From the NCBI RefSeq assembly GCF_009914755.1, contig NC_060939.1: a DNA stretch of 64,000 bases; one strand, given 5' to 3'. The notes beneath the pieces were generated by a model that searched no databases, was not told the origin of the DNA, and saw only the letters and a program-made list of their open reading frames with translations. Shown piece by piece: positions 26-26,112 of this stretch (position 1 is its first letter; every line of letters begins with the position of its first letter). Made by a program: the position numbers and the translations under genes. Source of the stretch: the human T2T-CHM13v2.0 reference genome, Homo sapiens.

Positions 26-3007
26 CTAGTAGATTGGCCAGGGCTTCGAACTGAAGGACGATAATGGGGAGTAGCTGTCAGGCCCTGGGAGTGCCTGAGT
101 GTAAGTGGAGATGGGTTTGGGGTCACTGAGGGATGTGTGGGAGCCATCCCTGTATAGGTACAGGTAGGTCATAGGGAGATAGTCTCGTGAGGCCTGTGAG
201 TGTCTAGGGTTGTCCTGGGTGCCTGGGGCTGACTGTGGCAGAAATCTGGGGAAGGCTGGAGAGAAGCTGGGAGACCCAGGAGAGTCCCTGAAGGCAGGGG
301 GTGAAGAGGTGAAAGAAATGGGGGAGGGTTGCAGTAAGGTCCGTGAGTTTGTAGGTGATTCCTGGGTGCGGGAAGCTGACTCCAGGTGAAATCTGGAGAT
401 GGTTGGAGAGTAGCTGAGAGAGACAGAAGAGTCCCTGAGGGCTGGGGGTGAGAACATGAGGGAGACGGGGGAGTAAGTCAGTGAAATTCGTGAGTTCGGT
501 GGTGTATCGTGGGTGCCTGGAACTGACTCCAGCTGGAATCTAGAGAAGTTTTGAGAGTAGCTGAAGGAGACACAAGAGTCCCTGTGGGCTGAGGGCAAAG
601 ACCTGAGAGAGACCAGGGAGGACCTCAGTGAAGTCTGTGAGTCTGTAGGTGATTCCGGAGTGTGGGAGGCTGACTCCCGCTGAAATCTGGGCGTGGTGGG
701 AGAGTAGCTGGGACAGACAGGAGAGTCCCAGGGGGCTGGGGGTGAAGACATGAGAGAGACTGGGGAGTAACTCAGTGAAATTGCTGAGTTGGTTGGTGAT
801 ACCTGGGTGCCTGGAACTGACCCCCGCTGAAATCTGGGCATGGTTGGAGAGTAGCTGGGACACACAAGAGAGTCCCTGAGGGCTGGGGGTGAAGACATGA
901 GCGAGACCGGGGAGTAACTGAGTGAAACTGGTGAGTTTGGTGGTGACTCCGGGGTGCCTGGAACTGACACCAGCTGAAATGTGGGCGTGGTTGGAGAGTA
1001 GCTGAGACAGACAGGAGAGTCCCTGAGGACTGGTGAAGACATGAGAGAGACTGGAGGGTAATTGAGTGAAATTGGTGAGTTTGGTGGTGATTCCTGGGTG
1101 CCTGGAACTGACTCCCGCTGAAGTGTGGGCGTGGTTGGAGAGTAGCTGGGACACACAGGAGAGTCCCTGAGGGTTGGAGATAAAGACGTGCTAGAGACTG
1201 AGGAGTAACTGAGTGAAATTGGTGAGTTTGGTGGTGATTCCGGGGTGCCTGGAACGGACTCCAGCTGAAACGTGGGCGTGGTTGGAGAGTAGCTGGGACA
1301 GACGGGAGAGTCCCTGAGGGATGGTGAAGACATGAGAGAGACTGGGGAGTAACGCAGTGAAATTGGTGAGTTTGGTGGTGATTTCTGGGTGCCTGCAGCG
1401 GACTCCCGCTGAAGTGTGGGCGTGCTTGGAGAGTAGCTGGGACAGACAGGCGAGTCCCTGAGGGTTGGAGATAAAGACGTGCTAGAGACTGAGGAGTAAC
1501 TGAGTGAATTTGGTGAGTTTGGTGGTGATTCCGGGGTGCCTGGAACGGACTCCGGCTGAAATGTGGGCGTGGTTGGAGAGTAGCTGGGACAGACGGGAGA
1601 GTCCCTGAGGGATGGTGAAGACATGAGAGAGACTGGGGAGTAACGCAGTGAAATTGGTGAGTTTGGTGGTGATTTCTGGGTGCCTGCAACGGACTCCCGC
1701 TGAAGTGTGGGCGTGCTTGGAGAGTAGCTGGGACAGACAGGCGAGTCCCTGAGGGTTGGAGATAAAGACGTGCTGGAGACTGGGGAGTAACTCAGTGAAA
1801 GTGGTGGGCTTGGTGGTGATCCCAGGGTTCCTGGAACTGACCCGCGCTGAAATGTGGGCGTGGTTGGAGAGTAGCTGGGACAGACTGGAGGGTCCGTAAG
1901 GGCTGGGGGTGAAGACGTGAGAGAGACTGGCGAGGATCTCACTGAGGTCTGTGAGTTTGTAGGTGTTTCTGGGGTGTGGGGTACAGACTCCCGCTGAAAT
2001 CTGGGCGTAGTTGGAGAGTAGCTGGGACAGACAGGAGAGTCATGGGTGGCTGGGGGTGAGCTGCTGGATGATGGCAGTAAGAACATATGGTACATTATTG
2101 ATGAATGAGGTGACTGTGAAGAATCTCCAGAGGAGGACACGGGAGAACACAATGACATGAGTGACTGTCCTGCTTGGTTAGGAAAGGGAAACGTAAAGTT
2201 GTGGAATTCTGTTGATGATGGATGTGAGAGTGGTGAAGCCCTGCGGGATGATGTAGAGGACTTCCACATCCCTGGTGAGGAGCTGCCCCTTGGGTCTGAG
2301 TTTCTGGGAGGGGAGAGGGAGAAGCTGGGTGAGGCAGGCATGAATCTTGAGGAGTCAGGGCTGGGGGACCGCTCATATTCTCCCGAGACCTGTGAGTCTC
2401 TGGGGGACTCCTGGGTGCATGGGGCTGGCTCCAGCAGGAACCTGGGGATGGCTGGAGAGTAACTGGGAGCCACAGGAGGGTCCCTGAGGCCTGGGGGTGA
2501 AGAGATGCAAGACACAGTGGTGGAGCAGCGTGAGGCTCGTGAGTTTGTAGGTGATTCCTGGGTATGGGGGGCTGACTCCAGCTGAAATCTGGGGTTGTTT
2601 GGAGAGTAGCTGGGAGACACTGGAGACCCCCCGAGAGCTGGGGGTGAGCTGCTGGGTGATGGCAGTAAGAACATGTGGTATATTATTGATGAACGTGGGG
2701 ACTCTGAGGAGTCCTCAGAGGAGGACACGGCAGAGCCCAATGGCTTCATTGATTGCCCATCACGGTGAGGACAGGGAAATGGGAGCTTGTGGGATTCTGG
2801 TGATGACAGAGGTGAGTGTGGTGAAGCCCTAGGGGATGGTGAATGGTAGTTCCGGATCCCTGGTGAGGAGCTTCCCCTTAAGCCTGAGTTTCTGAGAGGG
2901 GAGAGGGAGAAGCTGGGTGAGGCTCGCATGGACCTTGGGGTGTCCGTGCTGGGGGACCGTTCATAAGAAGAGCCAGACAAGACCCTACTGTTCTTAGGTG
3001 CAGACAT
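26..3007 (-). pseudogene. Unit 1 copy of CTD-like Ser/Pro repeat ORF, frameshifted near the C-terminus (993 aa)
   Basis: A 4-bp insertion at ~163-167 (gtacaggtaggtcata vs gtacaggtcata in other units) shifts the frame after ...DYLPMT. The repeat region itself is intact. Confidence 0.6.
110..2960 (-). repeat. ACRO1-like 147/144-bp satellite block (~19-20 monomers), present in every unit
   Basis: The anchor gagagtagct (or a variant) starts at 259, 406, 553, 700, 847, 994, 1138, 1285, 1429, 1576, 1720, 1867, 2014, 2455 and 2602. Spacings are 147 x5, 144, 147, 144, 147, 144, 147, 147, 441 (3x147), 147. Block edges are approximate. Confidence 0.9.
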
Positions 3008-3068
3008 GATTAGGAAACCTGCAGCTCCCAGGGTCCCCCACTAATGTTCTAACTCACAGAAGGAAGGA

Positions 3069-3082
3069 GTGTGTGTGCGTGT

Positions 3083-3116
<34 letters not shown>

Positions 3117-3135
3117 TTGTGTGTGTGCGGTGTGA
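3069..3135. repeat. (TG)n/(CA)n microsatellite, every unit
   Basis: Direct reading. Lies in the putative 5' leader; 2 bp longer in unit 2. Confidence 0.95.
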
Positions 3136-3177: not shown

Positions 3178-3203
3178 GACAGACAGACAGACAGACAGAC
3201 AGA
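3178..3203. repeat. (GACA)n microsatellite, every unit
   Basis: gacagacagacagacagacagacaga. Confidence 0.9.
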
Positions 3204-5611: not shown

Positions 5612-5720
5612 TAGGAGGAAGGAAGGAAGGAAGCAAGGAAGAAAGGAAGGAAGGAAAGAAGGAAGGTAGGACGGAAGGAAGGAAGGAAGGAAGGAAGGAA
5701 AGAAGGATGAAAGGAAGGAG
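5612..5720. repeat. (GGAA)n microsatellite, length-variable between units
   Basis: Direct reading. It is +8 bp in unit 2, +44 bp in unit 3 and +16 bp in unit 8. Confidence 0.95.
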
Positions 5721-6317: not shown

Positions 6318-9300
6318 TCACCGGTAGTGTGGCCCGCAGGGACGCCGACCTGCTGGAGCATCGTGCCAGCATGGGCTGTGGCAAGCACGTGGGCCAGCAG
6401 GAGGTTCCCGCTGCACAGCTGTGGGGTGAGGATAGACTGGGTGGTGATATCGGCCATTACAGGGGCCTCTTCTGCTGGCAAGAGTGTGACAGTAGCAAGT
6501 AGATGGACAGGCCTGCGTGTGAGGACGGAATGCAGGAGGGGTTCTTGTGCGCCTGGGTGTGGGGCCCTCACGGGAACCGTGGAGAAATGGCCAGGTAACT
6601 GCGTCATGTGGGCTAGTAGATTGGCCAGGGCTTCGAACTGAAGGACGATAATGGGGAGTAGCTGTCAGGCCCTGGGAGTGCCTGAGTGTAAGTGGAGATG
6701 GGTTTGGGGTCACTGAGGGATGCGTGGGAGCCATCCCTGTATAGGTACAGGTCATAGGGAGATAGTCTCGTGAGGCCTGTGAGTGTCTAGGGTTGTCCTG
6801 GGTGCCTGGGGCTGACTGTGGCAGAAATCTGGGGAAGGCTGGAGAGAAGCTGGGAGACCCAGGAGAGTCCCTGAAGGCAGGGGGTGAAGAGGTGAAAGAA
6901 ATGGGGGAGGGTTGCAGTAAGGTCCGTGAGTTTGTAGGTGATTCCTGGGTGTGGGAAGCTGACTCCAGGTGAAATCTGGAGATGGTTGGAGAGTAGCTGA
7001 GAGAGACAGAAGAGTCCCTGAGGGCTGGGGGTGAGAACATGAGGGAGACGGGGGAGTAAGTCAGTGAAATTCGTGAGTTCGGTGGTGTATCGTGGGTGCC
7101 TGGAACTGACTCCAGCTGGAATCTAGAGAAGTTTTGAGAGTAGCTGAAGGAGACACAAGAGTCCCTGTGGGCTGAGGGCAAAGACCTGAGAGAGACCAGG
7201 GAGGACCTCAGTGAAGTCTGTGAGTCTGTAGGTGATTCCGGAGTGTGGGAGGCTGACTCCCGCTGAAATCTGGGCGTGGTGGGAGAGTAGCTGGGACAGA
7301 CAGGAGAGTCCCAGGGGGCTGGGGGTGAAGACATGAGAGAGACTGGGGAGTAACTCAGTGAAATTGCTGAGTTGGTTGGTGATACCTGGGTGCCTGGAAC
7401 TGACCCCGCTGAAATCTGGGCATGGTTGGAGAGTAGCTGGGACACACAGGAGAGTCCCTGAGGGCTGGGGGTGAAGACATGAGCGAGACCGGGTAGTAAC
7501 TGAGTGAAACTGGTGAGTTTGGTGGTGACTCCGGGGTGCCTGGAACTGACTCCAGCTGAAATGTGGGCGTGGTTGGAGAGTAGCTGGGACAGACAGGAGA
7601 GTCCCTGAGGACTGGTGAAGACATGAGAGAGACTGGAGAGTAATTGAGTGAAATTGGTGAGTTTGGTGGTGATTCCTGGGTGCCTGGAACTGACTCCCGC
7701 TGAAGTGTGGGCATGGTTGGAGAGTAGCTGGGACACACAGGAGAGTCCCTGAGGGTTGGAGATAAAGACGTGCTAGAGACTGAGGAGTAACTGAGTGAAA
7801 TTGGTGAGTTTGGTGGTGATTCCGGGGTGCCTGGAACGGACTCCAGCTGAAATGTGGGCGTGGTTGGAGAGTAGCTGGGACAGACGGGAGAGTCCCTGAG
7901 GGATGGTGAAGACATGAGAGAGACTGGGGAGTAACGCAGTGAAATTGGTGAGTTTGGTGGTGATTTCTGGGTGCCTGCAACGGACTCCCGCTGAAGTGTG
8001 GGCGTGCTTGGAGAGTAGCTGGGACAGACAGGCGAGTCCCTGAGGGTTGGAGATAAAGACGTGCTAGAGACTGAGGAGTAACTGAGTGAAATTGGTGAGT
8101 TTGGTGGTGATTCCGGGGTTCCTGGAACGGACTCCGGCTGAAATGTGGGCGTGGTTGGAGAGTAGCTGGGACAGACGGGAGAGTCCCTGAGGGATGGTGA
8201 AGACATGAGAGAGACTGGGGAGTAACGCAGTGAAATTGGTGAGTTTGGTGGTGATTTCTGGGTGCCTGCAACGGACTCCCGCTGAAGTGTGGGCGTGCTT
8301 GGAGAGTAGCTGGGACAGACAGGCGAGTCCCTGAGGGTTGGAGATAAAGACGTGCTGGAGACTGGGGAGTAACTCAGTGAAAGTGGTGGGCTTGGTGGTG
8401 ATCCCAGGGTTCCTGGAACTGACCCGCGCTGAAATGTGGGCGTGGTTGGAGAGTAGCTGGGACAGACTGGAGGGTCCGTAAGGGCTGGGGGTGAAGACGT
8501 GAGAGAGACTGGCGAGGATCTCACTGAGGTCTGTGAGTTTGTAGGTGTTTCTGGGGTGTGGGGTACAGACTCCCGCTGAAATCTGGGCGTAGTTGGAGAG
8601 TAGCTGGGACAGACAGGAGAGTCATGGGTGGCTGGGGGTGAGCTGCTGGATGATGGCAGTAAGAACATATGGTACATTATTGATGAAAGAGGTGACTGTG
8701 AAGAATCTCCAGAGGAGGACACGGGAGAACACAATGACATGAGTGACTGTCCTGCTTGGTTAGGAAAGGGAAACGTAAAGTTGTGGAATTCTGTTGATGA
8801 TGGATGTGAGAGTGGTGAAGCCCTGCGGGGTGATGTAGAGGACTTCCACATCCCTGGTGAGGAGCTGCCCCTTGGGTCTGAGTTTCTGGGAGGGGAGAGG
8901 GAGAAGCTGGGTGAGGCAGGCATGAATCTTGAGGAGTCAGGGCTGGGGGACCGCTCATATTCTCCCGAGACCTGTGAGTCTCTGGGGGACTCCTGGGTGC
9001 ATGGGGCTGACTCCCGCAGGAACCTGGGGATGGCTGGAGAGTAACTGGGAGCCACAGGAGGGTCCCTGAGGCCTGGGGGTGAAGAGATGCAAGACACAGT
9101 GGTGGAGCAGCGTGAGGCTCGTGAGTTTGTAGGTGATTCCTGGGTGTGGGGGGCTGACTCCAGCTGAAATCTGGGGTTGTTTGGAGAGTAGCTGGGAGAC
9201 ACAGGAGACCCCCCGAGAGCTGGGGGTGAGCTGCTGGGTGATGGCAGTAAGAACATGTGGTATATTATTGATGAACGTGGGGACTCTGAGGAGTCCTCAG

Positions 9301-9589
9301 AGGAGGACACGGCAGAGCCCAATGGCTTCATTGATTACCCATCACGGTGAGGACAGGGAAATGGGAGCTTGTGGGATTCTGGTGATGACAGAGGTGAGTG
9401 TGGTGAAGCCCTAGGGGATGGTGAATGGTAGTTCCGGATCCCTGGTGAGGAGCTTCCCCTTAAGCCTGAGTTTCTGAGAGGGGAGAGGGAGAAGCTGGGT
9501 GAGGCTCGCATGGACCTTGGGGTGTCCGTGCTGGGGGACCGTTCATAAGAAGAGCCAGACAAGACCCTACTGTTCTTAGGTGCAGACAT
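6318..9589 (-). pseudogene. Unit 2 copy, doubly disrupted
   Basis: Nonsense CAA>TAA at codon 85 (9335-9337) and a 1-bp deletion at ~7404-7407 (gaccccgct vs gacccccgct). The ORF is split into 84, 658 and 472 aa pieces. Confidence 0.75.
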
Positions 9590-9700: not shown

Positions 9701-12700
9701 TTGTGTGTGTGCGGTGTGAGGTATGGGCCCCTTAAGGAAATGGAAATCAACCAACCAATGGGACAGACAGACAGACAGACAGACAGAGATTCACTTGCCC
9801 AAGTGTTCTGTCCTGTCCTCTGAATCCGCTTCCAAGTCGCAAGACGCTGTGAGCTCCAAGTCCACGCAGAGTCCGCCAAACGCTGCGGCCGCTGATCCGC
9901 TCCGCGAAGATCTGAGTACAGGCCAGCCAGGGTGGGTTTAAATAGCCTCGGGCGCAGCGTAGCAGCGGAAAGGGCGGAGCTTCACTCCTCCTTTCCATCA
10001 GTCACCCCCAACTTTCCCAGGCTACACCTCGTAGGAAACTGTTCTCCTGCTTTGATTTCATGCGCCACCTTTGGGACAATCTAAGAACTTACAGGTTTTC
10101 TTGGCCAGATTTATTAGGAATTGTATGCACTGAAACACTGAAAACCAACTAGTGGTTCTGTGCTTCCCACGTTGTGGTTTTGACACCAGCAGCATCCTTG
10201 CCACAATCAAACCCCGGAGATCCGCAGATCTGTGTTGTAACAAGACCTCCCCCTGACCCTGAAGCATGGCAGTTGAAGAAGTCTTTCCGTGTAAGCGAAA
10301 AGACTTTGAAGAAAAGGTGGAGATATGCGTTGTATAAACATTCTTTTGCTCTGGAACCACGTAGAGACTTGGGAGCCAGTTGGGTGGAGCATTCGTTGGA
10401 TGAGGGTGCTCGGGTTAGGAATATCAAGGTGTTTCTCCAGATAATCCAATCATCTAATTAAGATTCCAGTTATGCTCATCTGTTTTAAAATTCCGTTTGG
10501 GTAAATTCTTTTAGTCAGACTGAGAATGGCAAAGCCTCAACCCCAATTTCCAGGGAGGGTGGAGAGCCTCAGGTGGAGTTGATCACCAATAGCCTATAGT
10601 TTAACCCATCATGCCTATAGAATGAGGTCTCCATCAAAATCCAAAAGGACTGGGTTCAGAGAGCTTCTGGATAACACTTCCTGGAAGGTAGTGCGGCCCT
10701 CCCCGCATGGCGGGCCCCACATTTGTTTCTGAACTTTGTGCAATGTCCGCTAAATTACAACGGCAAATGTAAGTGTTTCCCTGCGTGCTGTGAGCTCTTC
10801 CAGCAAATGAATGCAACTAAATCTGGGAGTGGTGGCAACCTGATTTATAGCCAGTTGCTGAGAAGTACAGGTAAAACAACTTAGGGCTTCCCATTGTTAT
10901 TGGTGTGGGAGGCCTGTCTGGCGGGACTCGGCCCTTTGGAATCTAATGCTATGTCCCGGTAGATAGCGTCACCATTGAATTAGAAGACACACATATGTGG
11001 AGAATAATCTTTCTGGTCATTTGCTGCATGTCTTATTTACAATATGTAATCAAATTCTTTATCCTGACCTTATGGCACCTGGGTTTGAACCAAAAGTTGG
11101 TCTGTCACTTTCTGAGTTTGAAACTTTATTTTGCCTTTAGCGTTTTGCTATTGCTTTTTCGTTTTCTTTTGTTTCGTTTCGTTTCTAAGTTCTGGGGTAT
11201 ATGTGCAGGATGTGCAGATTTGTTACTAAGGTAAACGTGTGCCATGGTGGTTTGCTGCACCTGTCAACCCGTCACCTAGGTATTAAGCCCAGCATGCAGT
11301 AGCTGTTTTTCTTAACGCTCTGCCTCCCGAACGGCCCCAGTGTGTGTTGTTCCCCTTCCTGTGTCCATGGGATCTCACTTTTCAGCTCCCATTATAAGTG
11401 AGAAGGTGGCGTTTGGTTTTCTTTCCCTGGATTAGTTTGCTGACGATAATGACCACACATCACCACTGTTTTTGTTTTTTAGTATAAAGAGTAGTATTTT
11501 ATTGAATAAGATTTGCTCACAGAAAAATAAGCTTAAATCTACAATGAATGCCAGACCCTACAGCAGAAAGCAATTTTCTCACTTTTCCACACACAATGGT
11601 TCCTACTAAGTGAAAAAAAAGCCATAAAATTTCATTCACAAATGTACTACTCTGTCTCAAAACATCTCACGTAATCATGCACTGTACTAAAGCCATCAGA
11701 TCAGTTCTTCAGTCAGGTTAAAGAAGTATCCCTCTAATAACTGACTTTTATAATGCTATCAATATCCACTCCCAATCAGTCTGCCATTGTTAGTGGTGTA
11801 CAGCATTACTGAATACAACGGAATTGATGACGCCCATATCCACAGACAAACCGTGACTTATGATGGTTTGATTTATGATTTTTCAACGTTATGATGGGTT
11901 TTTTGGAATATTAGATTCGTTTCTGAGTTACACTGGGTTTATGAGTATGCGACCCTACACTCCAGAAACAGCTGTATAAGGAAAAACAGGTGTACCTAAT
12001 AAAAATATGCTTAGTGACTTGGGATAAACCAATAGATGTTCACAAGTGATGGAGAGCCGTGAAAGAGAGATAGCGGTAAATAGTTACAATAACACAATTT
12101 TCCTGCACCTGTCGAGGATTTCCCCCAAAAAACGCAGAATGTGGGATGCACCTAAGGCATATGAAAGAGAGAGGGCAGAAGGAGTAAGAGAGAAATAGGA
12201 GGAAGGAAGGAAGGAAGCAAGGAAGAAAGGAAGGAAGGAAAGAAGGAAGGTAGGACGGAAGGAAGGAAGGAAGGAAGGAAGGAAGGAAGGAAAGAAGGAT
12301 GAAAGGAAGGAGAAAACACCGGTGTTACTAAAACCCCCCAAAAAATGGTTTCCCCCTGTGGGTAAGCCTACAATGTGGATGAATCTTGAAAATATTGTGC
12401 TACGTGTTATGTCAGTCATAGCAGCTCACCTATTGTGCAATTCCGTTTATAGGAAATGTCCACAATATGGAAATCTATGCATATGGGATTGATCGCACTA
12501 GGTAGTTGCTACCTAGGGCTGAGGGTCAGGGAGAGGGTTTGAGACAGAATGAGGAGTGACTAATGTCTACAGGGTCTTTCTCTGGTCGGGGGTGATAAGA
12601 CGTTTTACAATGGATTGCGAATTAAAATTGAATGTGCACAACCACAGGTATACTAAAAGCCACTCAATTCATGACCTTTAATGGGGGAATCTTACGTGGC

Positions 12701-12908: not shown

Positions 12909-15900
12909 TCACCGGTAGTGTGGCCCGCAGGGACGCCGACCTGCTGGAGCATCGTGCCAGCATGGGCTGTGGCAAGCACGTGGGCCAGCAGGAGGTTCCC
13001 GCTGCACAGCTGTGGGGTGAGGATAGACTGGGTGGTGATATCGGCCATTACAGGGGCCTCTTCTGCTGGCAAGAGTGTGACAGTAGCAAGTAGATGGACA
13101 GGCCTGCGTGTGAGGACGGAATGCAGGAGGGGTTCTTGTGCGCCTGGGTGTGGGGCCCTCACGGGAACCGTGGAGAAATGGCCAGGTAACTGCGTCATGT
13201 GGGCTAGTAGATTGGCCAGGGCTTCGAACTGAAGGACGATAATGGGGAGTAGCTGTCAGGCCCTGGGAGTGCCTGAGTGTAAGTGGAGATGGGTTTGGGG
13301 TCACTGAGGGATGCGTGGGAGCCATCCCTGTATAGGTACAGGTCATAGGGAGATAGTCTCGTGAGGCCTGTGAGTGTCTAGGGTTGTCCTGGGTGCCTGG
13401 GGCTGACTGTGGCAGAAATCTGGGGAAGGCTGGAGAGAAGCTGGGAGACCCAGGAGAGTCCCTGAAGGCAGGGGGTGAAGAGGTGAAAGAAATGGGGGAG
13501 GGTTGCAGTAAGGTCCGTGAGTTTGTAGGTGATTCCTGGGTGCGGGAAGCTGACTCCAGGTGAAATCTGGAGATGGTTGGAGAGTAGCTGAGAGAGAAGA
13601 GTCCCTGAGGGCTGGGGGTGAGAACATGAGGGAGACGGGGGAGTAAGTCAGTGAAATTCGTGAGTTCGGTGGTGTATCGTGGGTGCCTGGAACTGACTCC
13701 AGCTGGAATCTAGAGAAGTTTTGAGAGTAGCTGAAGGAGACACAAGAGTCCCTGTGGGCTGAGGGCAAAGACCTGAGAGAGACCAGGGAGGACCTCAGTG
13801 AAATCTGTGAGTCTGTAGGTGATTCCGGAGAGTGGGAGGCTGACTCCCGCTGAAATCTGGGCGTGGTGGGAGAGTAGCTGGGACAGACAGGAGAGTCCCA
13901 GGGGGCTGGGGGTGAAGACATGAGAGAGACTGGGGAGTAACTCAGTGAAATTGCTGAGTTGGTTGGTGATACCTGGGTGCCTGGAACTGACCCCCGCTGA
14001 AATCTGGGCATGGTTGGAGAGTAGCTGGGACACACAGGAGAGTCCCTGAGGGCTGGGGGTGAAGACATGAGCGAGACCGGGTAGCAACTGAGTGAAACTG
14101 GTGAGTTTGGTGGTGACTCCGGGGTGCCTGGAACTGACTCCAGCTGAAATGTGGGCGTGGTTGGAGAGTAGCTGGGACAGACAGGAGAGTCCCTGAGGAC
14201 TGGTGAAGACATGAGAGAGAGTGGAGAGTAATTGAGTGAAATTGGTGAGTTTGGTGGTGATTCCTGGGTGCCTGGAACTGACTCCCGCTGAAGTGTGGGC
14301 GTGGTTGGAGAGTAGCTGGGACACACAGGAGAGTCCCTGAGGGTTGGAGATAAAGACGTGCTAGAGACTGAGGAGTAACTGAGTGAAATTGGTGAGTTTG
14401 GTGGTGATTCCGGGGTGCCTGGAACGGACTCCAGCTGAAATGTGGGCGTGGTTGGAGAGTAGCTGGGACAGACGGGAGAGTCCCTGAGGGATGGTGAAGA
14501 CATGAGAGAGACTGGGGAGTAACGCAGTGAAATTGGTGAGTTTGGTGGTGATTTCTGGGTGCCTGCAACGGACTCCCGCTGAAGTGTGGGCGTGCTTGGA
14601 GAGTAGCTGGGACAGACAGGCGAGTCCCTGAGGGTTGGAGATAAAGACGTGCTAGAGACTGAGGAGTAACTGAGTGAAATTGGTGAGTTTGGTGGTGATA
14701 CCGGGGTGCCTGGAACGGACTCCAGCTGAAATGTGGGCGTGGTTGGAGAGTAGCTGGGACAGACGGGAGAGTCCCTGAGGGATGGTGAAGACATGAGAGA
14801 GACTGGGGAGTAACGCAGTGAAATTGGTGAGTTTGGTGGTGATTTCTGGGTGCCTGCAACGGACTCCCGCTGAAGTGTGGGCGTGCTTGGAGAGTAGCTG
14901 GGACAGACAGGCGAGTCCCTGAGGGTTGGAGATAAAGACGTGCTGGAGACTGGGGAGTAACTCAGTGAAAGTGGTGGGCTTGGTGGTGATCCCAGGGTTC
15001 CTGGAACTGACCCGCGCTGAAATGTGGGCGTGGTTGGAGAGTAGCTGGGACAGACTGGAGGGTCCGTAAGGGCTGGGGGTGAAGACGTGAGAGAGACTGG
15101 CGAGGATCTCACTGAGGTCTGTGAGTTTGTAGGTGTTTCTGGGGTGTGGGGTACAGACTCCCGCTGAAATCTGGGCGTAGTTGGAGAGTAGCTGGGACAG
15201 ACAGGAGAGTCATGGGTGGCTGGGGGTGAGCTGCTGGATGATGGCAGTAAGAACATATGGTACATTATTGATGAAAGAGGTGACTGTGAAGAATCTCCAG
15301 AGGAGGACACGGGAGAACACAATGACATGAGTGACTGTCCTGCTTGGTTAGGAAAGGGAAACGTAAAGTTGTGGAATTCTGTTGATGATGGATGTGAGAG
15401 TGGTGAAGCCCTGCGGGGTGATGTAGAGGACTTCCACATCCCTGGTGAGGAGCTGCCCCTTGGGTCTGAGTTTCTGGGAGGGGAGAGGGAGAAGCTGGGT
15501 GAGGCAGGCATGAATCTTGAGGAGTCAGGGCTGGGGGACCGCTCATATTCTCCCGAGACCTGTGAGTCTCTGGGGGACTCCTGGGTGCATGGGGCTGACT
15601 CCCGCAGGAACCTGGGGATGGCTGGAGAGTAACTGGGAGCCACAGGAGGGTCCCTGAGGCCTGGGGGTGAAGAGATGCAAGACACAGTGGTGGAGCAGCG
15701 TGAGGCTCGTGAGTTTGTAGGTGATTCCTGGGTGTGGGGGGCTGACTCCAGCTGAAATCTGGGGTTGTTTGGAGAGTAGCTGGGAGACACAGGAGACCCC
15801 CCGAGAGCTGGGGGTGAGCTGCTGGGTGATGGCAGTAAGAACATGTGGTATATTATTGATGAACGTGGGGACTCTGAGGAGTCCTCAGAGGAGGACACGG

Positions 15901-16177
15901 CAGAGCCCAATGGCTTCATTGATTGCCCATCACGGTGAGGACAGGGAAATGGGAGCTTGTGGGATTCTGGTGATGACAGAGGTGAGTGTGGTGAAGCCCT
16001 AGGGGATGGTGAATGGTAGTTCCGGATCCCTGGTGAGGAGCTTCCCCTTAAGCCTGAGTTTCTGAGAGGGGAGAGGGAGAAGCTGGGTGAGGCTCGCATG
16101 GACCTTGGGGTGTCCGTGCTGGGGGACCGTTCATAAGAAGAGCCACACAAGACCCTACTGTTCTTAGGTGCAGACAT
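12909..16177 (-). pseudogene. Unit 3 copy, frameshifted (944 aa)
   Basis: A 4-bp deletion at ~13596 (agagagaaga vs agagagacagaaga) shifts the frame after ...LRDSS, giving a stop at 13343. Confidence 0.7.
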
Positions 16178-16252
16178 GATTAGGAAACCTGCAGCTCCCA
16201 GGGGCCCCCACTAATGTTCTAACTCGCAGAAGGAAGGAGTGTGTGTGCGTGT

Positions 16253-18934: not shown

Positions 18935-19530
18935 AAAACACCGGTGTTACTAAAACCCCCCAAAAAATGGTTTCCCCCTGTGGGTAAGCCTACAATGTGG
19001 ATGAATCTTGAAAATATTGTGCTACGTGTTATGTCAGTCATAGCAGCTCACCTATTGTGCAATTCCGTTTATAGGAAATGTCCACAATATGGAAATCTAT
19101 GCATATGGGATTGATCGCACTAGGTAGTTGCTACCTAGGGCTGAGGGTCAGGGAGAGGGTTTGAGACAGAATGAGGAGTGACTAATGTCTACAGGGTCTT
19201 TCTCTGGTCGGGGGTGATAAGACGTTTTACAATGGATTGCGAATTAAAATTGAATGTGCACAACCACAGGTATACTAAAAGCCACTCAATTCATGACCTT
19301 TAATGGGGGAATCTTACGTGGCGTAGTCTCATGGAGACCACGGCAGACATAGTGAGAGAGAAAAAGGTGAGTAAATATCTGAAACGGAGGCAGAAACAGA
19401 GAGAATGAAAAGCCCTGTGAATGGAAGGGAGAGCGAAAAGGGAAAATGGTCCTATTTACAAATGACAGATGTGAAACTGGGGTTCACATCAACAGTGTCA
19501 CTGCCAGGAAGGAGGGTCATGCTAGCCATG

Positions 19531-22500
19531 TCACCGGTAGTGTGGCCCGCAGGGACGCCGACCTGCTGGAGCATCGTGCCAGCATGGGCTGTGGCAAGCA
19601 CGTGGGCCAGCAGGAGGTTCCCGCTGCACAGCTGTGGGGTGAGGATAGACTGGGTGGTGATATCGGCCATTACAGGGGCCTCTTCTGCTGGCAAGAGTGT
19701 GACAGTAGCAAGTAGATGGACAGGCCTGCGTGTGAGGACGGAATGCAGGAGGGGTTCTTGTGCGCCTGGGTGTGGGGCCCTCACGGGAACCGTGGAGAAA
19801 TGGCCAGGTAACTGCGTCATGTGGGCTAGTAGATTGGCCAGGGCTTCGAACTGAAGGACGATAATGGGGAGTAGCTGTCAGGCCCTGGGAGTGCCTGAGT
19901 GTAAGTGGAGATGGGTTTGGGGTCACTGAGGGATGCGTGGGAGCCATCCCTGTATAGGTACAGGTCATAGGGAGATAGTCTCGTGAGGCCTGTGAGTGTC
20001 TAGGGTTGTCCTGGGTGCCTGGGGCTGACTGTGGCAGAAATCTGGGGAAGGCTGGAGAGAAGCTGGGAGACCCAGGAGAGTCCCTGAAGGCAGGGGGTGA
20101 AGAGGTGAAAGAAATGGGGGAGGGTTGCAGTAAGGTCCGTGAGTTTGTAGGTGATTCCTGGGTGCGGGAAGCTGACTCCAGGTGAAATCTGGAGATGGTT
20201 GGAGAGTAGCTGAGAGAGACAGAAGAGTCCCTGAGGGCTGGGGGTGAGAACATGAGGGAGACGGGGGAGTAAGTCAGTGAAATTCGTGAGTTCGGTGGTG
20301 TATCGTGGGTGCCTGGAACTGACTCCAGCTGGAATCTAGAGAAGTTTTGAGAGTAGCTGAAGGAGACACAAGAGTCCCTGTGGGCTGAGGGCAAAGACCT
20401 GAGAGAGACCAGGGAGGACCTCAGTGAAGTCTGTGAGTCTGTAGGTGATTCCGGAGAGTGGGAGGCTGACTCCCGCTGAAATCTGGGCGTGGTGGGAGAG
20501 TAGCTGGGACAGACAGGAGAGTCCCAGGGGGCTGGGGGTGAAGACATGAGAGAGACTGGGGAGTAACTCAGTGAAATTGCTGAGTTGGTTGGTGATACCT
20601 GGGTGCCTGGAACTGACCCCCGCTGAAATCTGGGCATGGTTGGAGAGTAGCTGGGACACACAGGAGAGTCCCTGAGGGCTGGGGGTGAAGACATGAGCGA
20701 GACCGGGTAGTAACTGAGTGAAACTGGTGAGTTTGGTGGTGACTCCGGGGTGCCTGGAACTGACTCCAGCTGAAATGTGGGCGTGGTTGGAGAGTAGCTG
20801 GGACAGACAGGAGAGTCCCTGAGGACTGGTGAAGACATGAGAGAGAGTGGAGAGTAATTGAGTGAAATTGGTGAGTTTGGTGGTGATTCCTGGGTGCCTG
20901 GAACTGACTCCCGCTGAAGTGTGGGCGTGGTTGGAGAGTAGCTGGGACACACAGGAGAGTCCCTGAGGGTTGGAGATAAAGACGTGCTAGAGACTGAGGA
21001 GTAACTGAGTGAAATTGGTGAGTTTGGTGGTGATTCCGGGGTGCCTGGAACGGACTCCAGCTGAAATGTGGGCGTGGTTGGAGAGTAGCTGGGACAGACG
21101 GGAGAGTCCCTGAGGGATGGTGAAGACATGAGAGAGACTGGGGAGTAACGCAGTGAAATTGGTGAGTTTGGTGGTGATTTCTGGGTGCCTGCAACGGACT
21201 CCCGCTGAAGTGTGGGCGTGCTTGGAGAGTAGCTGGGACAGACAGGCGAGTCCCTGAGGGTTGGAGATAAAGACGTGCTAGAGACTGAGGAGTAACTGAG
21301 TGAAATTGGTGAGTTTGGTGGTGATACCGGGGTGCCTGGAACGGACTCCAGCTGAAATGTGGGCGTGGTTGGAGAGTAGCTGGGACAGACGGGAGAGTCC
21401 CTGAGGGATGGTGAAGACATGAGAGAGACTGGGGAGTAACGCAGTGAAATTGGTGAGTTTGGTGGTGATTTCTGGGTGCCTGCAACGGACTCCCGCTGAA
21501 GTGTGGGCGTGCTTGGAGAGTAGCTGGGACAGACAGGCGAGTCCCTGAGGGTTGGAGATAAAGACGTGCTGGAGACTGGGGAGTAACTCAGTGAAAGTGG
21601 TGGGCTTGGTGGTGATCCCAGGGTTCCTGGAACTGACCCGCGCTGAAATGTGGGCGTGGTTGGAGAGTAGCTGGGACAGACTGGAGGGTCCGTAAGGGCT
21701 GGGGGTGAAGACGTGAGAGAGACTGGCGAGGATCTCACTGAGGTCTGTGAGTTTGTAGGTGTTTCTGGGGTGTGGGGTACAGACTCCCGCTGAAATCTGG
21801 GCGTAGTTGGAGAGTAGCTGGGACAGACAGGAGAGTCATGGGTGGCTGGGGGTGAGCTGCTGGATGATGGCAGTAAGAACATATGGTACATTATTGATGA
21901 ATGAGGTGACTGTGAAGAATCTCCAGAGGAGGACACGGGAGAACACAATGACATGAGTGACTGTCCTGCTTGGTTAGGAAAGGGAAACGTAAAGTTGTGG
22001 AATTCTGTTGATGATGGATGTGAGAGTGGTGAAGCCCTGCGGGGTGATGTAGAGGACTTCCACATCCCTGGTGAGGAGCTGCCCCTTGGGTCTGAGTTTC
22101 TGGGAGGGGAGAGGGAGAAGCTGGGTGAGGCAGGCATGAATCTTGAGGAGTCAGGGCTGGGGGACCGCTCATATTCTCCCGAGACCTGTGAGTCTCTGGG
22201 GGACTCCTGGGTGCATGGGGCTGACTCCCGCAGGAACCTGGGGATGGCTGGAGAGTAACTGGGAGCCACAGGAGGGTCCCTGAGGCCTGGGGGTGAAGAG
22301 ATGCAAGACACAGTGGTGGAGCAGCGTGAGGCTCGTGAGTTTGTAGGTGATTCCTGGGTGTGGGGGGCTGACTCCAGCTGAAATCTGGGGTTGTTTGGAG
22401 AGTAGCTGGGAGACACAGGAGACCCCCCGAGAGCTGGGGGTGAGCTGCTGGGTGATGGCAGTAAGAACATGTGGTATATTATTGATGAACGTGGGGACTC

Positions 22501-22803
22501 TGAGGAGTCCTCAGAGGAGGACACGGCAGAGCCCAATGGCTTCATTGATTGCCCATCACGGTGAGGACAGGGAAATGGGAGCTTGTGGGATTCTGGTGAT
22601 GACAGAGGTGAGTGTGGTGAAGCCCTAGGGGATGGTGAATGGTAGTTCCGGATCCCTGGTGAGGAGCTTCCCCTTAAGCCTGAGTTTCTGAGAGGGGAGA
22701 GGGAGAAGCTGGGTGAGGCTCGCATGGACCTTGGGGTGTCCGTGCTGGGGGACCGTTCATAAGAAGAGCCACACAAGACCCTACTGTTCTTAGGTGCAGA
22801 CAT
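19531..22803 (-). CDS. Putative 1090-aa Ser/Pro/Thr-rich Pol II CTD-like heptad-repeat protein (unit 4, intact)
   Basis: Uninterrupted 3273-nt ORF. Its ATG is the first ATG after the TATA/Inr and has A at -3 (TAATCATGT). 49-aa repeats of 7 heptads containing YSPTTP. Translation is not demonstrated. Confidence 0.55.
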   Translation of the reverse strand: MSAPKNSRVLCGSSYERSPSTDTPRSMRASPSFSLSPLRNSGLRGSSSPGIRNYHSPSPRASPHSPLSSPESHKLPFPCPHRDGQSMKPLGSAVSSSEDSSESPRSSIIYHMFLLPSPSSSPPALGGSPVSPSYSPNNPRFQLESAPHTQESPTNSRASRCSTTVSCISSPPGLRDPPVAPSYSPAIPRFLRESAPCTQESPRDSQVSGEYERSPSPDSSRFMPASPSFSLSPPRNSDPRGSSSPGMWKSSTSPRRASPLSHPSSTEFHNFTFPFPNQAGQSLMSLCSPVSSSGDSSQSPHSSIMYHMFLLPSSSSSPPATHDSPVCPSYSPTTPRFQRESVPHTPETPTNSQTSVRSSPVSLTSSPPALTDPPVCPSYSPTTPTFQRGSVPGTLGSPPSPPLSLSYSPVSSTSLSPTLRDSPVCPSYSPSTPTLQRESVAGTQKSPPNSPISLRYSPVSLMSSPSLRDSPVCPSYSPTTPTFQLESVPGTPVSPPNSPISLSYSSVSSTSLSPTLRDSPVCPSYSPSTPTLQRESVAGTQKSPPNSPISLRYSPVSLMSSPSLRDSPVCPSYSPTTPTFQLESVPGTPESPPNSPISLSYSSVSSTSLSPTLRDSPVCPSYSPTTPTLQRESVPGTQESPPNSPISLNYSPLSLMSSPVLRDSPVCPSYSPTTPTFQLESVPGTPESPPNSPVSLSYYPVSLMSSPPALRDSPVCPSYSPTMPRFQRGSVPGTQVSPTNSAISLSYSPVSLMSSPPAPWDSPVCPSYSPTTPRFQRESASHSPESPTDSQTSLRSSLVSLRSLPSAHRDSCVSFSYSQNFSRFQLESVPGTHDTPPNSRISLTYSPVSLMFSPPALRDSSVSLSYSPTISRFHLESASRTQESPTNSRTLLQPSPISFTSSPPAFRDSPGSPSFSPAFPRFLPQSAPGTQDNPRHSQASRDYLPMTCTYTGMAPTHPSVTPNPSPLTLRHSQGLTATPHYRPSVRSPGQSTSPHDAVTWPFLHGSREGPTPRRTRTPPAFRPHTQACPSTCYCHTLASRRGPCNGRYHHPVYPHPTAVQREPPAGPRACHSPCWHDAPAGRRPCGPHYR

Positions 22804-22878
22804 GATTAGGAAACCTGCAGCTCCCAGGGGCCCCCACTAATGTTCTAACTCGCAGAAGGAAGGAGTGTGTGTGCGTGT

Positions 22879-23120: not shown

Positions 23121-23191
23121 GATCTGAGTACAGGCCAGCCAGGGTGGGTTTAAATAGCCTCGGGCGCAGCCTAGCAGCGGAAAGGGCGGAG
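23121..23191 (-). promoter_or_regulatory. Core promoter of unit 4 (GC box, TATA 23156-23149, Inr 23127-23121)
   Basis: Same motifs as unit 1. DUX-type motif at 23654-23664. Confidence 0.65.
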
Positions 23192-26112
23192 CTTCACTCC
23201 TCCTTTCCATCAGTCACCCCCAACTTTCCCAGGCTACACCTCGTAGGAAACTGTTCTCCTGCTTTGATTTCATGCGCCACCTTTGGGACAATCTAAGAAC
23301 TTACAGGTTTTCTTGGCCAGATTTATTAGGAATTGTATGCACTGAAACACTGAAAACCAACTAGTGGTTCTGTGCTTCCCACGTTGTGGTTTTGACACCA
23401 GCAGCATCCTTGCCACAATCAAACCCCGGAGATCCGCAGATCTGTGTTGTAACAAGACCTCCCCCTGACCCTGAAGCATGGCAGTTGAAGAAGTCTTTCC
23501 GTGTAAGCGAAAAGACTTTGAAGAAAAGGTGGAGATATGCGTTGTATAAACATTCTTTTGCTCTGGAACCACGTAGAGACTTGGGAGCCAGTTGGGTGGA
23601 GCATTCGTTGGATGAGGGTGCTCGGGTTAGGAATATCAAGGTGTTTCTCCAGATAATCCAATCATCTAATTAAGATTCCAGTTATGCTCATCTGTTTTAA
23701 AATTCCGTTTGGGTAAATTCTTTTAGTCAGACTGAGAATGGCAAAGCCTCAACCCCAATTTCCAGGGAGGGTGGAGAGCCTCAGGTGGAGTTGATCACCA
23801 ATAGCCTATAGTTTAACCCATCATGCCTATAGAATGAGGTCTCCATCAAAATCCAAAAGGACTGGGTTCAGAGAGCTTCTGGATAACACTTCCTGGAAGG
23901 TAGTGCGGCCCTCCCCGCATGGCGGGCCCCACATTTATTTCTGAACTTTGTGCAATGTCCGCTAAATTACAACGGCAAATGTAAGTGTTTCCCTGCGTGC
24001 TGTGAGCTCTTCCAGCAAATGAATGCAACTAAATCTGGGAGTGGTGGCAACCTGATTTATAGCCAGTTGCTGAGAAGTACAGGTAAAACAACTTAGGGCT
24101 TCCCATTGTTATTGGTGTGGGAGGCCTGTCTGGCGGGACTCGGCCCTTTGGAATCTAATGCTATGTCCCGGTAGATAGCGTCACCATTGAATTAGAAGAC
24201 ACACATATGTGGAGAATAATCTTTCTGGTCATTTGCTGCATGTCTTATTTACAATATGTAATCAAATTCTTTATCCTGACCTTATGGCACCTGGGTTTGA
24301 ACCAAAAGTTGGTCTGTCACTTTCTGAGTTTGAAACTTTATTTTGCCTTTAGCGTTTTGCTATTGCTTTTTCGTTTTCTTTTGTTTCGTTTCGTTTCTAA
24401 GTTCTGGGGTATATGTGCAGGATGTGCAGATTTGTTACTAAGGTAAACGTGTGCCATGGTGGTTTGCTGCACCTGTCAACCCGTCACCTAGGTATTAAGC
24501 CCAGCATGCAGTAGCTGTTTTTCTTAACGCTCTGCCTCCCGAACGGCCCCAGTGTGTGTTGTTCCCCTTCCTGTGTCCATGGGATCTCACTTTTCAGCTC
24601 CCATTATAAGTGAGAAGGTGGCGTTTGGTTTTCTTTCCCTGGATTAGTTTGCTGACGATAATGACCACACATCACCACTGTTTTTGTTTTTTAGTATAAA
24701 GAGTAGTATTTTATTGAATAAGATTTGCTCACAGAAAAATAAGCTTAAATCTACAATGAATGCCAGACCCTACAGCAGAAAGCAATTTTCTCACTTTTCC
24801 ACACACAATGGTTCCTACTAAGTGAAAAAAAAGCCATAAAATTTCATTCACAAATGTACTACTCTGTCTCAAAACATCTCACGTAATCATGCACTGTACT
24901 AAAGCCATCAGATCAGTTCTTCAGTCAGGTTAAAGAAGTATCCCTCTAATAACTGACTTTTATAATGCTATCAATATCCACTCCCAATCAGTCTGCCATT
25001 GTTAGTGGTGTACAGCATTACTGAATACAACGGAATTGATGACGCCCATATCCACAGACAAACCGTGACTTATGATGGTTTGATTTATGATTTTTCAACG
25101 TTATGATGGGTTTTTTGGAATATTAGATTCGTTTCTGAGTTACACTGGGTTTATGAGTATGCGACCCTACACTCCAGAAACAGCTGTATAAGGAAAAACA
25201 GGTGTACCTAATAAAAATATGCTTAGTGACTTGGGATAAACCAATAGATGTTCACAAGTGATGGAGAGCCGTGAAAGAGAGATAGCGGTAAATAGTTACA
25301 ATAACACAATTTTCCTGCACCTGTCGAGGATTTCCCCCAAAAAACGCAGAATGTGGGATGCACCTAAGGCATATGAAAGAGAGAGGGCAGAAGGAGTAAG
25401 AGAGAAATAGGAGGAAGGAAGGAAGGAAGCAAGGAAGAAAGGAAGGAAGGAAAGAAGGAAGGTAGGACGGAAGGAAGGAAGGAAGGAAGGAAGGAAAGAA
25501 GGATGAAAGGAAGGAGAAAACACCGGTGTTACTAAAACCCCCCAAAAAATGGTTTCCCCCTGTGGGTAAGCCTACAATGTGGATGAATCTTGAAAATATT
25601 GTGCTACGTGTTATGTCAGTCATAGCAGCTCACCTATTGTGCAATTCCGTTTATAGGAAATGTCCACAATATGGAAATCTATGCATATGGGATTGATCGC
25701 ACTAGGTAGTTGCTACCTAGGGCTGAGGGTCAGGGAGAGGGTTTGAGACAGAATGAGGAGTGACTAATGTCTACAGGGTCTTTCTCTGGTCGGGGGTGAT
25801 AAGACGTTTTACAATGGATTGCGAATTAAAATTGAATGTGCACAACCACAGGTATACTAAAAGCCACTCAATTCATGACCTTTAATGGGGGAATCTTACG
25901 TGGCGTAGTCTCATGGAGACCACGGCAGACATAGTGAGAGAGAAAAAGGTGAGTAAATATCTGAAACGGAGGCAGAAACAGAGAGAATGAAAAGCCCTGT
26001 GAATGGAAGGGAGAGCGAAAAGGGAAAATGGTCCTATTTACAAATGACAGATGTGAAACTGGGGTTCACATCAACAGTGTCACTGCCAGGAAGGAGGGTC
26101 ATGCTAGCCATG

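What the first reader, a model, noticed from the sequence alone, without database searches (positions are those of the whole stretch)
259..2960. All monomer-level length changes preserve frame; nested 291-bp and 588-bp higher-order structure
Monomer spacings are only 147, 144 (one codon lost) or 441, although outer monomers are strongly diverged in sequence. The centre has a young 147+144 = 291-bp dimer repeated about three times (994-1867). The 5' part is an older 588-bp (4x147, 196-aa) duplication: YERSPSTDTPRSMRASPSFSLSP vs YERSPSPDSSRFMPASPSFSLSP. Non-coding satellites normally gain indels of any size, so frame conservation without stops suggests purifying selection on coding capacity during monomer divergence. 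Caveat: this C-rich strand is stop-poor anyway, since 204- and 305-aa ORFs exist in the other frames.
Basis: partly seen in the sequence, partly recalled or inferred. Interest (0 to 1): 0.7.

Follow-up and report, generated by a model that had tools for sequence, protein, structure and literature searches.

The report
ACRO1 satellite inside a gene-derived reading frame
The 147-base repeat is the known human ACRO1 satellite, but it forms the repeated middle of a 1,101-codon reading frame that looks like an old gene copied hundreds of times, and no test here shows whether that frame still makes a protein.

Summary
Monomers are spaced 147, 144 or 441 bp. A 291-bp dimer occurs three times, and a 588-bp duplication aligns without gaps. 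This is the ACRO1 satellite inside the 6.58-kb ACRO composite unit; the window holds ten copies that are 99.5-100% identical.

Only one independent small indel (3 bp) exists among the monomers. The dN/dS-like ratio is 0.84 (not significant), and there is no third-position excess. Among human paralogues dN/dS is 0.9-1.5. Three of the ten window copies carry frameshifts.

However, the open frame is not a chance product of a stop-poor strand:
- It spans 1,101 codons, including about 1.2 kb of non-satellite sequence with 0 stops, against 8 and 11 in the other two frames.
- Each unit has a TATA box, an ATG-free leader and an ATTAAA signal.
- Small indels are rarer in the frame than in the adjoining spacer (0 versus 19).
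- Predicted proteins in marmoset, colobus and rabbit share the 49-residue module and a conserved Cys/His C-terminal block.
- The DNA aligns in frame with the POLR2A CTD exon.

Best reading: a gene-derived coding repeat whose length changes by whole modules. Individual human copies are unconstrained, and present function is open.

The parts
213..2059 (-). Main ACRO1 array of the first unit: 147-bp monomers, each 49 codons or seven 21-bp sub-units.
   Evidence: TRF period 147. nhmmer with a monomer profile places 13 successive monomers. 21-bp sub-period: mean identity of the seven 21-mers is 0.417, against 0.279 +/- 0.021 in shuffles.
875..1747 (-). Three copies of the 291-bp (144+147) dimer.
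   Evidence: Identities 99.7%, 90.0% and 90.4%. The 144-bp member carries the single 3-bp deletion.
2385..2626 (-). Short ACRO1 block: one full monomer plus two thirds of a second.
   Evidence: nhmmer hits at frame nt 415-558 and 559-656. Matches the '256 bp' block described in PMC7714431 (passages).
1796..2971 (-). The two copies of the 588-bp duplication: a non-satellite insert of about 343 bp plus 1.67 monomers.
   Evidence: Ungapped, 76% nucleotide identity, 142 differences. The insert is not recognised by the monomer profile (E > 1).
26..3040 (-). Open frame of the first unit. It ends early at 26-28 because of a 4-bp insertion near window 170.
   Evidence: the ORF listing gives 1,004 codons. 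Insertion at frame nt 2871 relative to the reference unit.
19534..22836 (-). Reference full-length open frame, 1,101 codons stop to stop. First ATG is at 22803-22801.
   Evidence: Identical length in 7 of 10 window copies.
23149..23156 (-). TATTTAAA box 320 nt upstream of the frame, with a CCGCCC box just upstream of it. There is no ATG between the box and the frame's ATG.
   Evidence: The exact box is kept in 6 of 9 paralogous spacers, and the leader is ATG-free in 5 of those 6. A promoter role is inferred, not shown.
19299..19304 (-). ATTAAA 229 nt downstream of the stop codon.
   Evidence: Present at 228-231 nt in 9 of 9 paralogous spacers. A polyadenylation role is inferred.
23654..23664 (+). 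One match to a DUX4-type site. The motif is recalled from memory, not taken from a library.
   Evidence: Single hit in the unit, 828 nt upstream of the frame. Kept in 7 of 9 paralogous spacers.
7358..9334 (-). Second unit: frame broken by a C>T nonsense change (frame nt 286) and a 1-bp deletion (nt 2216).
13346..16210 (-). Third unit: frame broken by a 4-bp deletion (frame nt 2614).

Best explanation
The stretch is an ACRO1 satellite block within the 6.58-kb ACRO composite macrosatellite. That part is known. The block is also the internally repeated middle of a long open frame that descends from a protein-coding gene.

How the frame-preserving pattern arises:
1. The 147-bp monomer is a 49-codon module built from seven 21-bp units. 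Their reading frame matches that of the heptads of the RNA polymerase II CTD.
2. Array length changes by unequal exchange of whole modules (144, 147, 291, 441 and 588 bp), which keeps the frame automatically.
3. Over the longer term, unit lineages that persisted had few frame-breaking indels.

Amino-acid sequence is free to drift among the human copies, and young frameshift and nonsense variants are common. Single copies are therefore not under constraint.

Shown here: the anatomy, the paralogue statistics and the homologues in other mammals.

Inferred: past selection for an open frame, descent from CTD-coding DNA, and the promoter and polyadenylation roles of the flanking motifs.
For: The frame extends beyond the satellite. 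The 387 non-ACRO1 codons of the frame have 0 stops, against 8 and 11 in the other two frames. None of 20,000 position-specific shuffles had zero stops.

Gene-like layout. Each unit has TATTTAAA, a GC box, an ATG-free 320-nt leader, an ATG, a stop and ATTAAA 229 nt downstream. These are largely kept in paralogues on chr2, 4, 13 and 14.

Homologues in other species:
- A marmoset predicted protein of 832 aa is 69% identical over 97% of residues 1-420.
- A rabbit predicted protein of 575 aa gives BLASTP with composition adjustment 146 bits, E 9e-41, 35% identity over 584 positions. It has its own 49-residue periodicity (lag-49 identity 0.24 against about 0.12) and 19 of 32 identical residues in a Cys/His block.
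- Seven columns of the tail are invariant in 10 of 10 aligned sequences.

Indels. In 9 units from chr2, 4, 13, 14 and 15, the frame has 0 small indels per 412 substitution events. The adjoining spacers have 19 (16 not multiples of 3) per 584 events, Fisher p = 5.7e-5. For array units only the counts are 0/281 against 14/355, p = 4.6e-4. Length differences between units are all sums of 144 and 147 bp.

Link to the CTD. There are 40 blastn matches to the POLR2A CTD exon at E <= 0.01, and 34 of them are in the same reading register. The best match scores 49.1 bits, against a maximum of 35.6 in 100 shuffles. The serine before Tyr is AGY in 16 of 16 cases here and 22 of 24 in the CTD, whereas position 2 is TCN.

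Expression, from the literature. DUX4 activates ACRO1 transcription (PMC8990217, passage). Expression peaks at the 4-cell stage (PMC6545021, passages).
Against: No constraint on amino-acid sequence among human copies:
- 335 events in the unambiguously aligned parts of 13 units give a dN/dS-like ratio of 1.10, the same as the two control frames (1.10 and 1.06). Codon-position counts are 102/116/117.
- Pairwise NG86 dN/dS is 0.90-1.48.
- The older layers give only 0.84 (p = 0.37) and 0.70-0.76 (p = 0.05-0.14).

Stops. The shortage of new stops in this frame (7 against 14.4 expected) is matched by a non-coding frame (3 against 9.7).

Young variants break the frame freely:
- 3 of 10 window copies are broken.
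- In 15 full units of chr15 and chr22, the frame has 3 frameshift indels and 1 nonsense change per 33 substitutions, while the spacer has 2 complex indels per 52.
- Pooled over all layers the indel contrast is only p = 0.038.

Limits of the indel test. It was devised after seeing the data. The spacer also differs in composition from the frame (GC 0.44 against 0.57).

Limits of the homologues. Those in other species are automatic gene models whose DNA I could not see. Several database relatives switch among the three frames.

No family or gene model. Pfam has no family for the frame. RefSeq has no gene here (annotation given with the task).

Literature. Boots et al. found no stable ACRO1 transcripts in HeLa cells, and showed that the sense RNA shuts down its own transcription (PMC7714431, passages).
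Confidence: 0.6

Rival explanations
1. Living multi-copy gene. The ACRO unit is still a functional gene family, switched on by DUX4 at the 4-cell stage. It would make a serine/proline-rich, CTD-like protein in which an open frame and composition matter but exact residues do not.
For: About 70% of the units examined are intact:
- 7 of 10 in the window.
- 7 of 13 units on chr2, 4, 13 and 14.
- 35 of the 40 best full-length matches, a biased sample.

Frameshifts appear as young, rare variants but hardly ever among older differences: young/old by frame/spacer counts of [[4,2],[1,19]] give p = 0.005.

The isolated copies on chr13 (9.35 Mb) and chr2 have decayed, with five small indels and four stops respectively.

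The flanking motifs are gene-like.

DUX4 induction and the 4-cell expression peak are reported. A 2025 preprint calls it 'a putative protein coding gene' (PMC12746033, passage).
Against: dN/dS is about 1. There is no evidence here or in the papers read for translation or for a stable mRNA. The sense RNA is reported to be self-silencing. Selection on any one of roughly 240 copies (476 pattern matches, about two per unit) must be very weak. The old-versus-young test has small counts.
Confidence: 0.25
2. Neutral satellite. The open frame is a by-product of a stop-poor C-rich strand and of repeats whose length happens to be a multiple of three, with no coding history.
For: All three frames of this strand are stop-poor: 0, 13 and 18 stops against 28 expected from composition. 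Database relatives stay open for 400-550 residues while switching frames. Even the real POLR2A CTD exon has a 425-codon open alternative frame. dN/dS is about 1. There is only one independent small indel among the monomers.
Against: It does not explain the 387 stop-free non-satellite codons, the rabbit and marmoset homologues with a conserved Cys/His block, the in-register DNA match to CTD codons, or the indel deficit relative to the spacer.
Confidence: 0.1
3. RNA-level constraint. The repeat is kept for its RNA, the reported Pol II-binding aptamer, and the regular spacing reflects that use rather than translation.
For: SELEX reads map almost only to one strand of ACRO1 (1,029 sense against 1 antisense), and the element represses a reporter in cis (PMC7714431, passages).
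Against: An RNA motif gives no reason to avoid stop codons in one frame only, to keep non-satellite flanks open, or to disfavour 1-bp indels. Which strand the paper calls 'sense' was not checked against this window.
Confidence: 0.05

Closest known systems
ACRO1 satellite / ACRE or 'ACRO' 6-kb composite repeat (Warburton 2008, PMC2588610; Boots 2020, PMC7714431; bioRxiv 10.64898/2025.12.22.696095)
   Same: 147-bp monomer, blocks of about 1.3-2.4 kb and 256 bp, and a 6-kb unit with L1 and MER21B pieces. Arrays lie on acrocentric short arms plus 3p and 4p11, with an inversion in the chr4 array. The in-silico translation resembles the CTD.
   Different: The papers read treat it as a gene-free, primate-specific satellite, or mention a 'putative' gene in passing. 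Found here: a 1,101-codon frame through non-satellite sequence, gene-like flanks, an indel deficit and a rabbit homologue.
D4Z4 macrosatellite carrying DUX4 (recalled; D4Z4 and DUX4 are named in PMC12776069)
   Same: A kb-scale tandem unit, each copy with a complete intronless frame and its own promoter-like region. Expression is embryonic, and the frame is kept across mammals despite high copy number.
   Different: DUX4 has recognised homeodomains and a proven function. This frame has no Pfam family and no evidence of translation.
C-terminal domain of RNA polymerase II subunit RPB1
   Same: Heptad period, Ser/Pro/Thr/Tyr content and the same reading register at DNA level. phmmer gives E 2.6e-9 to a yeast RPB1 chain. 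BLASTP gives E 3e-8 to the human CTD exon.
   Different: The heptads are degenerate and organised in sevens (49 residues). The frame fails the Pfam CTD repeat model. It has unrelated head, insert and Cys/His tail segments and no polymerase body.
Alpha-satellite higher-order repeats (recalled)
   Same: Nested periodicity (monomer, dimer, larger unit) produced by unequal exchange. Monomer length is kept with few indels.
   Different: Alpha satellite has no long open frame, no cross-order protein homologues and no gene-like flanks.

Membership tests
ACRO1 satellite in the ACRO composite unit | 147-bp monomer in blocks of 1.3-2.4 kb and about 256 bp | tested here: met
   TRF period 147 over 1.85 kb. 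A second block of 242 bp.
ACRO1 satellite in the ACRO composite unit | About 6-kb tandem unit on acrocentric short arms, 3p and 4p11 | tested here: met
   6,582-bp unit. Copies found on chr13, 14, 15, 21, 22, 3 and 4, and also on chr1 and chr2.
ACRO1 satellite in the ACRO composite unit | Match to the Dfam/Repbase ACRO1 consensus and to the L1PA10, MER21B and L1MB8 pieces | not testable with these tools
   No repeat library is held. The assignment rests on the published description.
RPB1 CTD heptad repeat (Pfam PF05001) | Passes the curated Pfam model | tested here: not met
   0 Pfam families at E <= 1. A genome search with PF05001 gave 17 matches; 13 lie in POLR2A on chr17, 3 on chr16 and 1 on chr1, and none lies in an ACRO unit.
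RPB1 CTD heptad repeat (Pfam PF05001) | Sequence similarity to CTD beyond composition, in the same reading register | tested here: met
Protein-coding gene under purifying selection | dN/dS below 1 and a third-position excess | tested here: not met
   1.10 among paralogues. 0.90-1.48 pairwise. 0.84 among monomers and 0.70-0.76 for the 588-bp duplication, at best p = 0.05.
Protein-coding gene under purifying selection | Deficit of frame-breaking indels and stops relative to neutral neighbours | tested here: inconclusive
   Old layer: 0 against 19 indels, p = 5.7e-5. Young layer: no deficit. Pooled: p = 0.038. The stop deficit is shared with a control frame.
Protein-coding gene under purifying selection | Open frame and conserved blocks in distant species | tested here: met
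   Marmoset, colobus and rabbit predicted proteins, with an invariant Cys/His block.
Gene-bearing macrosatellite (D4Z4/DUX4 type) | Every unit carries a complete frame with promoter-like and polyadenylation-like signals | tested here: met
   The function of the signals is inferred.
Gene-bearing macrosatellite (D4Z4/DUX4 type) | Transcript and protein shown | not testable with these tools
   Only reports of ACRO1 RNA in embryos and DUX4-expressing cells. No strand, isoform or peptide data were seen.

The most novel reading that the evidence does not exclude
The ACRO composite repeat would be a living gene family of roughly 240 copies, most of them intact, descended from a gene older than the primate-rabbit split. 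DUX4 would switch it on at the human 4-cell stage. It would make a protein of about 1,100 residues built of degenerate CTD heptads, ending in a conserved Cys/His block. Such a protein could act as a mimic or decoy of the Pol II tail, for CTD kinases, phosphatases or condensates, at embryonic genome activation. The satellite label has hidden it from gene catalogues.
Probability: 0.2. Interest if true: 0.85.

Novelty: new member of a known kind. Interest (0 to 1): 0.6.

Why it matters
ACRO is the repeat class most specific to ape acrocentric short arms (bioRxiv 10.64898/2025.12.22.696095, passage). It is hypomethylated in the male germline (PMC5832720, passage), induced by DUX4 and transcribed at the 4-cell stage.

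If its unit is a gene, or was one until recently, that changes three things:
- how acrocentric short arms are annotated;
- how the reported ACRO1 RNA in embryos, FSHD cells and tumours is read;
- the claim that the repeat is primate-specific.

It also offers a clear case of a satellite born from a coding repeat. A clean test is available: frame versus spacer within the same tandem unit.

Tried and rejected
- Pfam, NCBIfam and Rfam gave nothing for the frame, the homologues or the unit.
- A profile of the Cys/His tail found no solved structure (best E 0.33).
Only 50 kb of chr22 was added.
- A position-independent stop expectation overestimates stops in control frames too. I therefore did not rely on the stop deficit among paralogues.
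- The first choice of the 'longest open frame' in the POLR2A locus was the wrong frame and was corrected.
- The idea that the head, inserts and tail are just old ACRO1 monomers was tested with a monomer profile and not supported (E > 1).
- The idea that the frame is indel-poor for mutational reasons is contradicted by three or four young frameshifts and by five small indels in the decayed chr13 copy.
- Searches 'ACRO1' + 'open reading frame' and 'ACRO1' / 'protein-coding' / 'macrosatellite' found no paper describing the full frame or non-primate homologues. Subscription papers and closed supplements were not searched.
Full report
**What is there**

The window consists of ten tandem copies of a 6,582-bp unit, 99.5-100% identical to each other. 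Each unit holds a 1.85-kb array of 147-bp repeats.

The literature identifies this as the ACRO1 satellite inside a 6-kb composite unit:
- Boots et al. call the unit 'ACRE' (PMC7714431, passages).
- Warburton et al. describe a 6-kb unit at 4p11, which they class with arrays that 'do not contain genes' (PMC2588610, passages).
- A recent preprint calls it 'ACRO', made of ACRO1, L1PA10, MER21B and L1MB8 annotations, and says it is primate-specific (bioRxiv 10.64898/2025.12.22.696095, passages).

A 33-base pattern from the unit occurs 476 times in the assembly, usually twice per unit. That suggests about 240 units. Matches were listed on chr1, 2, 3, 4, 13 and 14 (376 matches were not listed), and copies on chr15, 21 and 22 appear.

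**The observation**

- Anchors in the minus-strand translation are spaced 49, 48 or 147 residues.
- The 291-bp dimer is present three times, at 99.7% and 90% identity.
- The 588-bp duplication is ungapped, at 76% nucleotide identity.
- The frame has no stop. It is 1,101 codons long in 7 of 10 copies.

Two qualifications:
- The alignment of 15 monomers contains exactly one indel event, a 3-bp deletion inherited by three monomers. All other length changes are whole monomers.
- The monomer is itself seven 21-bp units. Mean identity between the seven 21-mers is 0.417, against 0.279 +/- 0.021 for shuffles, and the best self-match lag is 21. Any exchange in register is therefore in frame by construction.

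Among 12 distinct monomers there are 122 minimum substitution events.
- Codon-position counts are 35/39/48, p = 0.34.
- The dN/dS-like ratio is 0.73 by simple site counting. It is 0.84 against an expectation matched for base change and CpG context, p = 0.37. The control frames give 1.33 and 1.05.
- The 588-bp duplication gives 0.58 by NG86, or 0.70-0.76 with the matched expectation, p = 0.05-0.14.

Neutral simulation from the consensus to the observed divergence:
- It leaves the frame open in 0.25% of 20,000 runs if monomers are treated as independent.
- On an event basis, 3.7 stops are expected and none is seen, P = 0.024.

On these tests alone the coding signal in the monomers is weak.

**Human paralogues**

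I fetched units from chr1, 2, 4, 13 and 14. They differ from the chr15 unit by about 2-11% (dS 0.011-0.11).

Of 13 complete units:
- 7 are fully open in the same frame;
- 3 have one or two in-frame stops;
- the chr2 unit has four in-frame stops;
- 2 have frameshifts.

All large length differences are sums of 144 and 147 bp.

In the 1,987 unambiguously aligned columns there are 335 events.
- The dN/dS-like ratio is 1.10, against control frames of 1.10 and 1.06.
- Codon-position counts are 102/116/117.
- New stops number 7 against 14.4 expected. A control frame shows 3 against 9.7, so this deficit is not specific to the frame.
- Pairwise NG86 values are 0.90-1.48.

The amino-acid sequence is therefore unconstrained among human copies.

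**Young variants**

Within the window:
- copy 1 has a 4-bp insertion;
- copy 2 has a nonsense change and a 1-bp deletion;
- copy 3 has a 4-bp deletion.

In 15 full units of chr15 and chr22:
- the frame has 33 substitution variants (24 replacement, 8 silent, 1 nonsense) and 3 frameshift indels;
- the spacer has 52 substitutions and 2 indels outside microsatellites.

Single copies are clearly free to break.

**Why the frame is nevertheless not a chance product**

First, about 1.2 kb of the frame is not ACRO1 at all (monomer profile E > 1). These 387 codons have 0 stops, while the other two frames have 8 and 11, as composition predicts. No position-specific shuffle out of 20,000 was stop-free.

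Second, each unit has a gene-like layout on the same strand:
- a GC box and TATTTAAA 320 nt upstream;
- no ATG between that box and the frame's ATG;
- ATTAAA 229 nt after the stop;
- these are mostly kept in 9 paralogous spacers.

Third, small indels are scarce in the frame compared with the spacer of the same units.
- In 9 units the counts are 0 per 412 substitution events against 19 per 584, p = 5.7e-5.
- In array units alone they are 0/281 against 14/355, p = 4.6e-4.
- The decayed isolated copy on chr13 has five small indels in the frame, and the young layer has four frameshift indels. The sequence is therefore not intrinsically indel-proof.
- Young against old layers, by frame against spacer, gives [[4,2],[1,19]], p = 0.005. 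Pooling everything gives p = 0.038.
- This test was devised after seeing the data, and the counts are small.

Fourth, there are relatives in other mammals.
- The word-indexed search returned a marmoset protein of 832 aa, named RPB1 by its source. It has the same start, inserts, modules and tail, and one internal stretch read in another frame.
- The exhaustive search returned 89 relatives at E <= 0.001, many of them short or frame-switching fragments of unnamed origin.
- One relative is a rabbit protein of 575 aa. It aligns at 35% identity over 584 positions (E 9e-41, composition adjusted), in register with the 49-residue module, through to a block ..ACPS(T/S)CYCH..A.RR..CNG..HHP with 19 of 32 residues identical.
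- Ten aligned tails share seven invariant columns.
- An unnamed 355-aa relative has the head, one insert, about one module and the tail.

These are automatic models, and I could not inspect their DNA.

**Relation to the Pol II tail**

- phmmer against solved structures hits only RPB1 chains, with high compositional bias (best E 2.6e-9).
- Pfam's CTD model is not matched.
- At DNA level the frame gives 40 matches to the human POLR2A CTD exon at E <= 0.01, and 34 are in the same register. The best scores 49.1 bits, against a maximum of 35.6 for 100 trinucleotide shuffles.
- The serine preceding Tyr uses AGY in 16 of 16 cases here and 22 of 24 in the CTD, while serine at position 2 uses TCN in both. 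The monomers are copies of one another, so this amounts to about two independent heptads.

This fits the suggestion of Boots et al. that ACRO1 derives from CTD-coding RNA (PMC7714431, passage). The rabbit homologue would place the origin before primates.

**Verdict**

The frame-preserving pattern is best explained as inheritance from a coding repeat, mechanical in-register exchange, and past selection for an open frame. There is no present constraint on residues or on single copies.

Whether the family still encodes a protein is open.
- Reported DUX4 induction and a 4-cell expression peak speak for it.
- The lack of stable transcripts in HeLa cells and the self-silencing sense RNA speak against it.
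- One preprint already calls it 'a putative protein coding gene', without analysis in the text I could read (PMC12746033, passage).

Noticed in passing
window 5616-5719, 12200-12311, 18786-18933, 51740-51859 and the same place in the other units: The (AGGA)n tract of the spacer varies from 26 to 37 copies between otherwise near-identical units, and it accounts for most length differences between units.
   Followed up: partly
window 3069-3127 and 3178-3203, repeated in every unit: A (GT)n and a (GACA)n tract lie inside the presumed 5' leader of the frame, between the TATA-like box and the ATG. Both vary in length among paralogues.
   Followed up: partly
L011 584-1858 (chr17, POLR2A CTD exon): The true CTD exon has a 425-codon open alternative frame overlapping its 399-codon coding frame. 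This shows that repeats of a multiple-of-three length keep more than one frame open.
   Followed up: no
G000 chr4:49,239,000-49,289,000 (L020-L027): The chr4 array changes orientation between about 49,259,600 and 49,263,400, as Warburton 2008 reported. Its units differ more from each other than the acrocentric ones do.
   Followed up: partly
G000 chr21:2,355,910-2,366,077: Two chr21 units have a 1,149-codon open frame, 48 codons (about one monomer) longer than the chr15 form.
   Followed up: no
proteins P0001-P0003 and many of P0005-P0092: Public protein collections hold dozens of fragments 80-99% identical to this frame, from short contigs of unnamed origin and often reading two or three frames in turn. 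This echoes the report that human repeats, ACRO1 included, contaminate bacterial assemblies and yield spurious proteins (PMC6581058, passages).
   Followed up: no
G000 chr13:9,352,000-9,355,100 (L028), chr2:132,719,000-132,725,200 (L018, L019) and chr1:127,766,500-127,772,100 (L017): Isolated or short-array copies outside the large arrays are the most diverged (dS 0.07-0.11 for the chr2 and chr13 copies) and are broken or truncated. They might mark older insertion sites or an ancestral locus.
   Followed up: partly
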